Shown here piece after piece: positions 29,807-41,331 of a stretch of 64,000 bases of DNA. The position numbers and the translations under genes are program-made. The notes beneath the pieces were generated by a model. The model made no database searches. It saw only the letters and a program-made list of their open reading frames with translations, and was not told the DNA's origin. This stretch comes from Escherichia phage vB_EcoM_G2494. The stretch's first letter is position 1. The number at the start of each line of letters is the position of its first letter. The stretch is taken from sequence record MK327935.1. The stretch is one strand, 5' to 3'.

Positions 29807-29836
29807 ATTATAGGGGAGTTTAACCTCCCCTGTCAA
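29807..29836 (-). promoter_or_regulatory. early promoter (TTGACA-18-TATAAT) with palindromic spacer GGGGAGGTTAAACTCCCC
   Basis: Read on minus strand. Confidence 0.55.
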
Positions 29837-29844
29837 CAACTTTT

Positions 29845-30156
29845 TTAAAGTTTTTCCATGATAACGGTCATAATTACATCTTCTGCGCGAGCGGTCAGAT
29901 TATCAGCGTCAGCATGTGGGCGGTTGGTTGTTACAGAGATAACACCGTTGCGCACTGGTTTGATATTGATATCAAGATGATCCGCGAAACGTTCGCCAGT
30001 TACAGAATGAATTTTGGTGTTAAATTCTTTTGCCAGTGCCTTGCGAACTTCACGAATCAGGATAGCGTTTTTCAGTTGGTTCTCCGCGCTCATGGTCTTC
30101 TGGGTGTTCATGGTTCCGTCGAAGTCAATCATTGGCAGCGTTACGATGTATTTCAT
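29845..30156 (-). CDS. hypothetical protein, KEFN-motif paralog 2 (103 aa)
   Basis: REVRKALAKEFNTK; paralog of 26280-26567. Confidence 0.5.
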   Translation of the reverse strand: MKYIVTLPMIDFDGTMNTQKTMSAENQLKNAILIREVRKALAKEFNTKIHSVTGERFADHLDINIKPVRNGVISVTTNRPHADADNLTARAEDVIMTVIMEKL

Positions 30157-30201: not shown

Positions 30202-30230
30202 AGTATAGGGGATACGTGATCCCCTGTCAA
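30202..30230 (-). promoter_or_regulatory. early promoter TTGACA-17-TATACT with palindromic spacer GGGGATCACGTATCCCC
   Basis: Read on minus strand. Confidence 0.6.
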
Positions 30231-30323
30231 CAACTTTTTTGAATTATTTTTTCATGAGCTTAATGGCTTCTTCCATAGCCAGCACATTTCGATAGTTAGG
30301 GTATCGTGTTAGATCGTCATACA

Positions 30324-30355
30324 TTCGCTTAAGGGTGGATTCGCTTAAGGGTGGA
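30324..30355. repeat. perfect 16-bp tandem duplication (ttcgcttaagggtgga x2)
   Basis: Direct reading; sits at the 3' end of CDS 30329-30589 and shifts its frame. Confidence 0.9.
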
Positions 30356-30589
30356 AACTTCCTCAAACTCTGGGTTTTCTAGATACAGTTGAACAAATTG
30401 TTTCTCTACCATCTCGGCTTTTAGCTTGTCTGCTTGTTCCTGTTCATATGATTTAGTTGGACCCAACACCAACAAAATGATAAAGGTGATCAACGATAGG
30501 AGAACATAACCGATAACGCTACGGTTTAAACGGCTTGCGTACATGCCTACCAGGAAAACAAAAAGGATATAGATAAACAGAAAGAACAT
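30329..30589 (-). CDS. small membrane protein, C-terminally truncated by 16-bp duplication
   Basis: Two hydrophobic helices; without the duplication the frame would run 25 codons further and stop at about 30244-30246, directly at the next promoter UP element. Confidence 0.5.
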   Translation of the reverse strand: MFFLFIYILFVFLVGMYASRLNRSVIGYVLLSLITFIILLVLGPTKSYEQEQADKLKAEMVEKQFVQLYLENPEFEEVSTLKRIHP

Positions 30590-30596
30590 ATAATGG

Positions 30597-31070
30597 TTAC
30601 TCCTTATTTTCGCGCTCGTACTTTTCGAAATAAAATTCTACTGGCTGGTCGTGGATTGACAGTAAGCCAAAGCGTTTAGCCGCTCGCAATCCCATATTGC
30701 GCTGAATGTACTTCTGGAAGTTCTCGCGTATACACTTACGCCAGTATTCTAAGCCCATACAGCTTTTGTAAAGATTGCATTGCACACAAGCCGGATTCAT
30801 ATTATCAAGTATATCGTGCTCCGGTTTATGCATTCCTACAACCTTATACTTCCACGATCCATCATCATTACGGGCAATTCGTCCATTTTCATCATAGACT
30901 ACCTTTGAGCGTCGCAATACTGGTTTGATGTGGTCTGCGTGCCATCGGTCCCCTAGTTCCTCGCCACAATAGGCACAACGCCCACCGTATTTCATTTTCA
31001 GGATCTGGCGTTGCTCTTTCTTTGACAATTTTTTAGGTTTAGGGGCTTTCGCCCCTTCATTATCACACAT
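30597..31070 (-). CDS. free-standing HNH endonuclease (157 aa)
   Basis: CAYCG ... HADHIKP ... CVQCN HNH/zinc motifs. Confidence 0.65.
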   Translation of the reverse strand: MCDNEGAKAPKPKKLSKKEQRQILKMKYGGRCAYCGEELGDRWHADHIKPVLRRSKVVYDENGRIARNDDGSWKYKVVGMHKPEHDILDNMNPACVQCNLYKSCMGLEYWRKCIRENFQKYIQRNMGLRAAKRFGLLSIHDQPVEFYFEKYERENKE

Positions 31071-40147: not shown

Positions 40148-41331
40148 AGATATTTCCCGAATCGGTTGTAGTCATCGTCTGTTAAATCGGTATTAACCTG
40201 AGATACCAGATACATGATCTCTACTTCTTGCGCCGCGTTTTGAACTTCGTCAGAGTTTAACCACTTACGCATCCACGGTAAAGGATGACGACGAACACTA
40301 AACGGGCTTTTCAGTCCGGCAGCACGCATACGGGAATCTGCCAGGTATTCTACATAGGTTTTCAGAATTTCCGGTGACAGGTTAGGAATTGCCCCCATTG
40401 CGAATAGGTGGTCTACCCATTCTTTTTCTTGCTCGACAACATCCAGAAAGATTTTCGTTGCTTCGCCTTCAAGTTCTTCCGCAATCTGTTTCCACTCATC
40501 ACCATCAACCCCAGTTTGCCATTGACGAATAATGTATTGTGTGCCTTTTAAGTGAAGTTGTTCATCACGCGCAATAAATTTCATGATCTTCGCGTTACCT
40601 TCCAGTAAACCACGTTCGGCAAAGCTGAAAGTACATGCAAAGGACACATAAAAACGGATTGCTTCCAGTGCATTTACGCAGTGTGCACACAGATAAATCG
40701 AAGCCATCAGATCTCGTTTTGTGTCTTCAAAAAATCTTCTTGCATCATCTAATTCTGTCTGATCGTCTCGTTCTTCCCAATAGTGGTGGAGAACTTCTTC
40801 TTCCCAATAGCGGAGATCTTCTTTTGCATTCTCATACTTACGAATCCAATAGAGAACATCATCATAATATTTCCCGATAGATTCCGCTCGCTTCATGATA
40901 GAAGGGTTATCGATGATCTGGTCGAACTCACTAGCAGGATCAATAAAACAGTTACGCATAATGTGTGTATAGCTTCTGCTATGAATCGTTTCGCTGAATG
41001 TCCATGTTTGCAACCATGTATCGAGAGTTGGATCAGATACAATTGGACCAAATACACGGGCTGGCGCTCTGCCTTGAATCGAATCTAGCAAAGTTTGATA
41101 ACGTAAGTTCTCGGTGAAGAAACGCTTTTCAACATCGCTCATATTCAGATATTGAATGCGGTCAGTTGCAAGTGAAATCTCTTCTGGACGCCAGAAAAAT
41201 GACAACTGCTTCTCGATCAACTCTTCAAATACTTGATGACGCTGAATATCATAACGGGCAATCCCTAAATCACTACCAAAAAACATCGGTTCGGTCATAA
41301 TATCAACATGTTCACGATTAAATACGCTCAT
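40144..41331 (-). CDS. nrdB: ribonucleotide reductase small subunit NrdB
   Basis: RNR beta diiron motifs; ATG at 41331 (track start GTG). Confidence 0.92.
   Translation of the reverse strand: MSVFNREHVDIMTEPMFFGSDLGIARYDIQRHQVFEELIEKQLSFFWRPEEISLATDRIQYLNMSDVEKRFFTENLRYQTLLDSIQGRAPARVFGPIVSDPTLDTWLQTWTFSETIHSRSYTHIMRNCFIDPASEFDQIIDNPSIMKRAESIGKYYDDVLYWIRKYENAKEDLRYWEEEVLHHYWEERDDQTELDDARRFFEDTKRDLMASIYLCAHCVNALEAIRFYVSFACTFSFAERGLLEGNAKIMKFIARDEQLHLKGTQYIIRQWQTGVDGDEWKQIAEELEGEATKIFLDVVEQEKEWVDHLFAMGAIPNLSPEILKTYVEYLADSRMRAAGLKSPFSVRRHPLPWMRKWLNSDEVQNAAQEVEIMYLVSQVNTDLTDDDYNRFGKYL

What the first reader, a model, noticed from the sequence alone, without database searches (positions are those of the whole stretch)
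30324..30355. Perfect 16-bp tandem duplication frameshifts the 3' end of a membrane-protein gene
ttcgcttaagggtgga occurs twice in direct tandem. With both copies the ORF 30329-30589 stops inside the repeat (product ends ... STLKRIHP). Removing one copy restores a frame that continues 25 codons (... STLKRMYDDLTRYPNYRNVLAMEEAIKLMKK) and stops at about 30244-30246, exactly at the UP element of the next promoter as for neighbouring genes. This points to a recent slippage-type duplication, possibly a reversible on/off switch, or an assembly artefact.
Basis: seen in the sequence. Interest (0 to 1): 0.45.

Follow-up and report, generated by a model that had tools for sequence, protein, structure and literature searches.

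The report
Strain-specific frameshift in dispensable phage gene
A perfect 16-base tandem duplication, found only in this one T4-like coliphage (vB_EcoM_G2494), breaks the reading frame of a small accessory membrane-protein gene that most related phages lack; it looks like ordinary mutational decay, not a genetic switch.

Summary
It truncates the minus-strand ORF 30589-30329 to 86 aa.

The window is a Krischvirus (RB49-like). The 86-aa product is identical to QBO63176.1 of phage vB_EcoM_G2494, and that sequence occurs once among about 15 billion proteins. The gene is the homologue of RB49 ORF211 (phrog_25625, function unknown).

All 18 distinct phage genomes and 4 metagenome contigs that carry the gene have one copy of the 16-mer. 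Apart from two independently damaged metagenome alleles, they encode a 114-aa protein. The two-copy state is therefore derived.

The same gene in the window also has a unique 15-bp deletion. It removes 5 residues (LIISP) from the most conserved motif of the family. The C-terminal tail lost through the frameshift is conserved in relatives of only 26-38% identity.

About two thirds of Krischvirus genomes lack the gene, and two other wild alleles carry independent deletions. ORF211 is the only one of 80 RB49-homologous genes that is frame-broken in the window, which argues against a general assembly problem.

Best reading: a real, lineage-specific inactivating mutation in a dispensable gene of a hyperplastic region. 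I found no evidence for a programmed on/off switch. Interest is low.

The parts
30340..30355 (-). First copy, in sense orientation, of the 16-nt unit TCCACCCTTAAGCGAA. It is read in the ancestral frame as S-T-L-K-R.
30324..30339 (-). Second, extra copy of the 16-nt unit. It is read in the +1 frame and contains the premature stop TAA at 30331-30329.
30329..30589 (-). Truncated ORF of 86 aa. It is the homologue of RB49 ORF211 (phrog_25625) and is identical to QBO63176.1 (G2494_00215).
30244..30324 (-). Orphaned 3' end of the ancestral gene: codons for MYDDLTRYPNYRNVLAMEEAIKLMKK plus the stop at 30246-30244. It is now out of frame with the upstream ORF. Its DNA is identical to RB49, JSE and G37-3.
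   Evidence: alignment A1; second tblastn segment in another frame
30488..30497 (-). Junction of a 15-bp in-frame deletion. One unit of the direct repeat CGTTGATCA-N6-CGTTGATCA is lost, which removes residues LIISP from the invariant TM2 motif LSLIISPLITFIILLV.
30600..30605 (-). Shine-Dalgarno sequence AAGGAG of the gene, intact. It lies next to the stop of the upstream HNH endonuclease gene.
   Evidence: read directly from the sequence; conserved in alignment A4
30202..30250 (-). PeSL211/210-type composite element: A/T-rich leader holding the ancestral stop, -35 TTGACA (30230-30225), 7-bp stem-loop AGGGGAU-CACGU-AUCCCCU (30225-30207) and -10 TATACT (30207-30202).
   Evidence: definition and in vivo tests in PMC2839356
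29845..30156 (-). Downstream gene, the ORF210 homologue (103 aa, phrog_7474). It has its own PeSL promoter, so the frameshift should have no polar effect on it.
30597..31070 (-). Upstream HNH endonuclease gene, 100% identical in protein to RB49 ORF212. The DNA ligase gene (gp30) lies further upstream, from 31063.

Best explanation
The feature is a real, lineage-specific mutation. A 16-bp segment of the accessory gene homologous to RB49 ORF211 was duplicated in direct tandem in the lineage of phage vB_EcoM_G2494. The extra 16 nt shift the frame by +1. Translation therefore ends 5 codons into the second copy (TAA at 30331-30329), giving an 86-aa protein.

That protein keeps the two transmembrane helices and about half of the soluble helical domain. 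It lacks the conserved C-terminal part, namely half of helix 84-95 and all of helix 102-113 in the model of the intact protein.

The same allele also lost 15 bp by deletion between 9-bp direct repeats. This removes five residues, including the conserved Ser-Pro kink, from the most conserved motif of the family.

Together the two lesions most likely make the gene a null or strongly impaired allele. The gene is dispensable. It lies in a hyperplastic region bounded by PeSL promoter/terminator cassettes, is absent from about two thirds of Krischvirus genomes, and is independently damaged in other wild alleles. The downstream gene has its own promoter, so nothing else is affected.

Shown here: the duplication, its uniqueness, its derived state, the second lesion, the conservation of the lost parts, and the dispensability of the gene. 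Inferred: loss of function, and origin by replication slippage or unequal exchange. The allele could in principle revert by loss of one copy, but that would be an ordinary revertible mutation, not a regulatory device.
For: The duplication is perfect and not due to chance.

One copy is present in RB49, JSE and G37-3. All 21 phage records with the gene (18 distinct genomes) match the RB49 allele at 98.0-100% over 356/356 nt with equal spans, so none has the 16-bp or the 15-bp indel. The metagenome and Logan contigs L005, L011, L018 and L019 all have one copy.

The 86-aa product occurs once among about 15 billion proteins, in G2494. The 114-aa form is on more than 150 contigs.

The motif LSLIISPLITFIILLV is invariant or nearly so in 17 other family members, down to about 31% identity, and only the window lacks LIISP. 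The C-terminal tail (Y..L....AI..MK) is conserved in full-length relatives at 26-38% identity and is invariant among close variants.

The AlphaFold model of the intact protein has pLDDT 90.7 and shows that the lost residues form structured helices.

The gene is absent from about two thirds of Krischvirus records. It was described as RB49-specific relative to phi1, in a hyperplastic region (PMC2839356). Independent damaged alleles exist: a 13-bp frameshifting deletion in L019 and a 15-bp in-frame deletion in L018.

Only ORF211, out of 80 RB49 genes with a counterpart, is split between frames in the window. All other indels of 9 bp or more relative to RB49 are net multiples of three. A comparable perfect 18-bp tandem duplication, unique to RB49, sits in the neighbouring ORF210.
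Against: No reads were available, so the two-copy state has not been verified at read level and population heterogeneity is unknown.

Loss of function is inferred from conservation only, because the function of the protein family is unknown. Stand-alone 51-56-aa versions of the transmembrane hairpin exist in other phages. The window's two hydrophobic segments remain long enough to span a membrane, at 19 and 22 residues. A truncated protein could therefore keep some activity.

Finding a second indel in the same 345-bp gene is only weakly significant once one conditions on the first. By my rough estimate from 10 indels of 9 bp or more in about 47 kb, P is about 0.07.
Confidence: 0.75

Rival explanations
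1. Sequencing or assembly artefact, or a minority variant fixed in the consensus: the phage stock actually carries one copy.
For: The allele is unique to a single GenBank record. The genomes of that study were assembled from PacBio RSII (HGAP3) or MiSeq (SPAdes) data, and no per-site validation was reported.
Against: Of 80 genes comparable with RB49, only this one is frame-broken, so the assembly is not indel-prone. From general knowledge, a perfect 16-nt non-homopolymer tandem duplication is not a typical error of either platform. A Sanger-era genome, RB49, shows the same kind of strain-specific perfect duplication (18 bp) in the adjacent gene. The second lesion in the same gene fits real decay.
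Confidence: 0.1
2. Reversible on/off (phase-variation-like) switch: the phage population alternates between one-copy (ON) and two-copy (OFF) states of the membrane protein by slippage.
For: From general knowledge, adjacent 16-bp direct repeats can be lost by slippage or recombination, so two-copy to one-copy reversion is mechanistically plausible. Deletion between short direct repeats in T7 depends on repeat length (Pierce et al. 1991, seen only as a reference).
Against: There is no copy-number polymorphism in 22 other alleles or in more than 150 contigs encoding the 114-aa form. The tract has only two copies of a long unit, and the one-copy sequence has only 1 nt of flanking microhomology, so the forward step should be very rare. 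The same allele carries a 15-bp deletion in the invariant motif, so reversion would not restore the ancestral protein. Other wild alleles are broken by unrelated deletions, which fits decay better than a dedicated switch.
Confidence: 0.04
3. The truncated, TM2-shortened protein is a functional, possibly adaptive, variant, for example by acting through the transmembrane hairpin alone.
For: The transmembrane hairpin module occurs alone, at 51-56 aa, in other phages and is fused to unrelated C-terminal domains elsewhere. The start codon, Shine-Dalgarno sequence and both hydrophobic segments are intact in the window.
Against: The 5 residues deleted from TM2 lie in the only block that is nearly invariant across the whole family. 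Within the ORF211-type subfamily the C-terminal tail is conserved to 26-38% identity. The allele is seen in one genome only.
Confidence: 0.09
4. Translational recoding restores a full-length product from the two-copy allele. The routes would be a 16-nt ribosome hop between the identical copies, a +1 shift at CCU-UAA-G, or termination and reinitiation at the ATG that lies 4 nt after the stop.
For: The duplication necessarily creates matched take-off and landing codons 16 nt apart. A +1 shift at CCU UAA G would re-enter the ancestral frame. An in-frame ATG (30324-30322) follows the stop after 4 nt (read from the sequence).
Against: No stimulatory RNA structure is predicted around the site (z = -0.54). 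No Shine-Dalgarno-like sequence precedes the ATG. The take-off codons that would restore the frame are not followed by a stop, unlike T4 gene 60. The allele is unique, so selection has not conserved any such signal.
Confidence: 0.02

Closest known systems
Spontaneous tandem-duplication frameshift mutations of T-even phages (Streisinger-type misalignment mutations in T4 rII and lysozyme genes; from general knowledge)
   Same: It is a short, perfect, direct tandem copy of a sequence that is single-copy in the wild type. Its length is not a multiple of three, it causes a premature stop, and it could in principle revert by precise loss of one copy. It occurs in a T4-type phage.
   Different: It was found in a natural isolate's genome rather than selected in the laboratory. 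Only 1 nt of microhomology flanks the unit, so classic slippage between pre-existing repeats is not evident. The reversion frequency is unmeasured.
RB49 ORF210 perfect 18-bp tandem duplication (TGATCCGCGAAACGTTCG x2), found here
   Same: It is a strain-specific, perfect tandem duplication of similar length with no flanking microhomology. It lies in the adjacent gene of the same hyperplastic region of a sister phage, and all other genomes have one copy.
   Different: It is in frame (+6 aa), so the gene stays open. The window's 16-bp event is out of frame.
PeSL-bounded ORFan cassettes of RB49/phi1-type phages (Arbiol et al. 2010, PMC2839356; Comeau et al. 2014, PMC4122927)
   Same: The affected gene is RB49 ORF211's homologue. 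It is one of the variable genes of a hyperplastic region and ends at PeSL211/210. The window keeps that element intact.
   Different: PeSL-mediated turnover removes or inserts whole cassettes by recombination between PeSLs. Here the gene is damaged internally by small indels that do not involve PeSLs.
Simple-sequence contingency loci (phase variation by repeat slippage; from general knowledge)
   Same: A change in repeat copy number inside a coding region toggles the reading frame of a surface or membrane protein gene.
   Different: Contingency loci have many copies of 1-8-nt units and show copy-number polymorphism between and within strains. Here there are two copies of a 16-nt unit, in one genome only.
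T4 gene 60 translational bypass (from general knowledge)
   Same: Identical codons upstream and downstream of a short untranslated gap could serve as take-off and landing sites.
   Different: There is no stop codon directly after a frame-restoring take-off codon, no predicted take-off stem-loop and no conservation. The gap is 16 nt rather than 50 nt.

Membership tests
RB49 ORF211 family (phrog_25625) | Significant full-length match to the family profile | tested here: met
   The window ORF matches phrog_25625 at E = 2.2e-50 over profile positions 1-89 of 114. The RB49 protein matches 1-114 at E = 3.7e-76. The missing C-terminal codons are present out of frame in the DNA.
RB49 ORF211 family (phrog_25625) | Intact invariant TM2 motif LSLIISPLITFIILLV | tested here: not met
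   The window protein lacks LIISP. All 17 other aligned members have it.
RB49 ORF211 family (phrog_25625) | Conserved C-terminal helical tail (Y..L....AI..MK) in frame | tested here: not met
   The window product ends ...STLKRIHP. The tail is conserved in relatives at 26-38% identity. The allele is therefore a damaged member of the family.
Tandem-duplication frameshift mutation | Perfect direct tandem copy of a sequence that is single-copy in all relatives, with a length that is not a multiple of 3 | tested here: met
Tandem-duplication frameshift mutation | Flanking microhomology indicating slipped mispairing as the origin | tested here: inconclusive
   Only 1 nt (T) is shared between the start of the unit and the base after it.
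Phase-variable contingency locus | Copy-number polymorphism of the repeat among related genomes or populations | tested here: not met
   One copy is present in 18 phage genomes and 4 metagenome contigs. Two copies occur only in the window.
Phase-variable contingency locus | A tract of many short units that allows high-rate slippage in both directions | tested here: not met
   Two copies of a 16-nt unit.
Phase-variable contingency locus | Within-stock heterogeneity of copy number | not testable with these tools
   No sequencing reads are available.
PeSL (promoter-early stem-loop) element downstream of the gene | Upstream gene's stop in an A/T-rich tract, sigma-70 -35 and -10 boxes, a stem-loop within or overlapping the promoter, then the Shine-Dalgarno sequence and start of the next gene | tested here: met
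   Ancestral stop at 30246-30244 in AAAAAATAATTCAAAAAAG. TTGACA-17-TATACT scores 11 of 12. A 7-bp G/C-rich stem-loop sits in the spacer. GGAG and the ATG of the ORF210 homologue follow at 30156. The definition is in PMC2839356.
Programmed translational bypass or frameshift | Stimulatory signals (a stop next to the take-off codon, an RNA structure, a Shine-Dalgarno-like element) and evolutionary conservation of the site | tested here: not met
   No significant structure was found, no suitable stop or Shine-Dalgarno arrangement is present, and the allele is unique.

The most novel reading that the evidence does not exclude
The two-copy allele could be one state of a revertible population-level polymorphism that a T4-like phage uses to silence and re-express an accessory membrane protein, for example one that is costly on some hosts. 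Alternatively, ribosomes could hop the 16-nt duplicate to make some full-length protein. Either would be a new kind of long-unit duplication switch in a lytic phage. The evidence does not strictly exclude this because no read-level or protein data exist.
Probability: 0.04. Interest if true: 0.55.

Novelty: new member of a known kind. Interest (0 to 1): 0.12.

Why it matters
The significance is modest. The case shows how accessory ORFs in the hyperplastic regions of T4-like phages are lost. Besides whole-cassette deletion between PeSLs, small slippage-type indels also occur: three independently damaged alleles of one 345-bp gene, plus a sister-strain duplication in the neighbouring gene.

For annotation, G2494_00215 should be flagged as a frameshifted remnant of the ORF211 family rather than a bona fide 86-aa protein.

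The gene family itself is widespread and uncharacterised. It is a conserved two-helix membrane hairpin with the invariant motif LSLIISPLITFIILLV, fused either to a helical tail or to a zinc ribbon. G2494 is a natural probable null mutant that could be compared with its one-copy relatives.

Tried and rejected
- **IMG/VR scans.** Scans for both the two-copy and the one-copy junction returned nothing, so that collection is uninformative for this gene.
- **Genome collection.** A scan of bacterial and archaeal genomes with a 20-mer from the site returned nothing.
- **Metagenome scan.** A scan with a 17-mer gave 12 loci. Only 2 were true homologues and the rest were chance matches.
- **Domain searches.** Pfam and NCBIfam gave no significant family. 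The hits to DUF485 and to the N-terminal part of cardiolipin synthase are weak and far below the curated cut-offs.
- **Fold searches.** Searches of the confident model against BFVD and PDB gave only uncharacterised phage membrane proteins and no functional lead.
- **RNA folding.** Folding around the duplication showed no structure beyond shuffled controls, so a structured recoding signal was rejected.
- **Literature.** A search for T4 duplication-reversion rates was unproductive in the held library, and Pierce et al. 1991 is not held. No reversion rate is therefore quoted.
- **Sequencing platform.** The platform used for G2494 could not be found in the main text of Korf et al. 2019.
- **Window locus in the collection.** A look-up of the contig encoding the exact 86-aa protein found nothing on record.

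Full report
**Observation.** The sequence ttcgcttaagggtgga occupies 30324-30339 and again 30340-30355. Tandem Repeats Finder reports 30323-30355 with period 16, 2.1 copies and 100% matches. It is the only perfect tandem duplication with a unit of 10-40 nt in the window. About 3e-5 such events are expected by chance, and none of 100 Markov-simulated 64-kb sequences had a perfect tandem unit longer than 12 nt.

On the minus strand the ORF 30589-30329 encodes 86 aa ending ...EEVSTLKRIHP. The premature stop TAA lies at 30331-30329, inside the second copy in sense orientation.

**What the locus is.** The window is a Krischvirus, an RB49-like T4-type coliphage. The gene lies downstream of the DNA ligase gene (gp30) and an HNH endonuclease gene, and upstream of the ORF210 homologue.

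The 86-aa product is identical to QBO63176.1, 'hypothetical protein G2494_00215' of Escherichia phage vB_EcoM_G2494 (168,327 bp). That sequence occurs exactly once among about 15 billion proteins. The window is therefore G2494 or an indistinguishable genome. G2494 is not in the phage collection searched, where the nearest relatives are about 96% identical.

The gene is the homologue of RB49 ORF211 (RB49p211), which is 345 nt and 114 aa in RB49, JSE and G37-3. It belongs to phrog_25625, a family of unknown function. It has no Pfam or NCBIfam family.

**Comparative evidence.** Aligned with RB49, JSE and G37-3, the window has exactly one extra 16-nt unit. Downstream of it the DNA is identical through the ancestral stop at 30246-30244.

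All 21 phage records with the gene (18 distinct genomes) match the window's 357-nt segment over 356 nt. They match the RB49 allele at 98.0-100% over 356/356 nt with equal spans. None of them therefore has either indel.

Two metagenome contigs (L005, L011), one Logan contig (L018) and one gut-metagenome contig (L019) also have a single copy. The 114-aa form is recorded on more than 150 contigs. The two-copy state is derived and, so far, private to this genome.

**A second lesion.** The window's allele also lacks 15 bp. In RB49 this segment is flanked by perfect 9-bp direct repeats, CGTTGATCA-ttagcc-CGTTGATCA. The deletion is in frame and removes LIISP from TM2.

In an alignment of 18 family members reaching down to about 31% identity, the block LSLIISPLITFIILLV is invariant or nearly so. 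The window's protein is the only one lacking these residues.

**What the frameshift removes.** A phmmer search of 1.84 billion representative proteins found 270 relatives. Most share only the N-terminal two-helix hairpin, which also exists alone at 51-56 aa and fused to zinc ribbons.

A subfamily of full-length relatives at 26-38% identity conserves the C-terminal tail, Y..L....AI..MK. Close variants keep the tail invariant.

An AlphaFold model of the intact protein (pLDDT 90.7) has these elements:
- TM1 at residues 2-20.
- TM2 at residues 25-34 and 37-47, broken at the conserved Ser-Pro.
- Helices at 53-76, 78-82, 84-95 and 102-113.

The frameshift removes residues 90-114, that is half of one helix and all of the last. 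Hydropathy analysis supports two membrane segments. The second is shortened from 27 to 22 apolar residues in the window. Fold searches gave no functional lead.

**Context and dispensability.** About two thirds of Krischvirus records lack the gene altogether, for example phi1 and GEC-3S. Arbiol et al. 2010 list ORF211 among the RB49-specific genes of a hyperplastic region. They describe it as a homologue of a Vibrio fischeri superintegron ORF, and they showed that the stem-loop of PeSL211/210 terminates transcription in vivo (PMC2839356).

The window retains that element: an A/T-rich leader with the ancestral stop, TTGACA-17-TATACT, and a 7-bp stem-loop in the spacer.

Two other wild alleles are independently damaged:
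- L019 has a 13-bp frameshifting deletion in the same TM2 repeat region, giving a 56-aa product. It is seen on 3 contigs.
- L018 has a different in-frame 15-bp deletion.

**Artefact check.** Of 84 RB49 CDSs, 80 have a counterpart in the window, and only ORF211 is split between two frames. All other indels of 9 bp or more relative to RB49 are net multiples of three.

RB49 itself carries a perfect in-frame 18-bp tandem duplication in the adjacent ORF210. It is unique among 43 records. Events of this kind therefore do occur in these genomes. G2494 was sequenced by PacBio RSII or MiSeq. Without reads the artefact hypothesis cannot be excluded, but it is unlikely.

**Interpretation.** The best explanation is an ordinary, lineage-specific tandem-duplication frameshift in a dispensable accessory gene. 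Together with the TM2 deletion it most likely inactivates the gene (confidence 0.75).

How the duplication arose is unresolved, because only 1 nt of junctional microhomology is present. Loss of one copy by slippage is plausible, which makes the allele revertible in principle. Nothing indicates a programmed switch, however:
- There is no copy-number polymorphism.
- The tract has only two long units.
- The second lesion would persist after reversion.

Recoding (a hop, a +1 shift at CCU-UAA, or reinitiation at the ATG 4 nt after the stop) has no supporting signal.

The novelty is that of a new instance of a well-known kind of mutation. Interest is low.

Noticed in passing
window 30488-30497 (minus-strand gene 30329-30589): A 15-bp in-frame deletion between 9-bp direct repeats (CGTTGATCA) removes LIISP from the invariant TM2 motif of the family. 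It is unique to this genome among all alleles examined.
   Followed up: yes
L003:346-675 / L017:30525-30560 (RB49 ORF210): RB49 carries a perfect in-frame 18-bp tandem duplication (TGATCCGCGAAACGTTCG x2) in the gene next to ORF211. All 41 other records, and the window, have the 312-nt single-copy form.
   Followed up: yes
L019:2552-2722 (gut metagenome ERR2597519) and L018:795-1124 (Logan SRR24962617): These are two further independently damaged alleles of the same gene. L019 has a 13-bp frameshifting deletion in the same TM2 direct-repeat region, giving a 56-aa product. L018 has an in-frame 15-bp deletion that removes FVQLY.
   Followed up: yes
window 40771-40823 (nrdB, minus strand): An imperfect 27-bp in-frame tandem repeat in the ribonucleotide reductase small-subunit gene. 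It is shared with four other phages (pEJ01, phiS, Skers, G5211) and absent from most Krischvirus records, including RB49. It appears to be an older, tolerated duplication polymorphism.
   Followed up: partly
protein P0174 (cluster of the 114-aa form): A 120-aa variant seen on 9 contigs has lost the stop codon and reads 6 extra codons (IIQKSC) into the PeSL leader. By inference this comes from one extra A in the terminal A-run; the DNA was not inspected.
   Followed up: partly
protein P0170 (WP_239815998.1, 3676-bp contig of a Bacillus atrophaeus assembly): A Krischvirus-type 114-aa ORF211 protein is annotated in a Bacillus atrophaeus genome assembly on a very short contig. This is probably coliphage contamination of that assembly.
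   Followed up: no
window-wide (comparison with L017 = RB49 92500-142400): RB49 ORFs 195, 196, 226 and 240 (an endonuclease) have no counterpart in the window. ORF192 is only 58% identical. This is typical hyperplastic-region cassette turnover.
   Followed up: no
window 29807-29836 (minus strand): A second textbook PeSL lies upstream of the ORF209 homologue: TTGACA-18-TATAAT (12 of 12) with a 7-bp GGGGAGG/CCUCCCC-type stem-loop in the spacer (z = -2.9).
   Followed up: partly
proteins P0006-P0018, P0020, P0033: The N-terminal two-helix membrane hairpin with the invariant motif SLIISPLITFIILLV is a widespread module. It is found alone (51-56 aa) or fused to a CPKC...CRFC zinc ribbon in metagenomic proteins. 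No function is known.
   Followed up: partly
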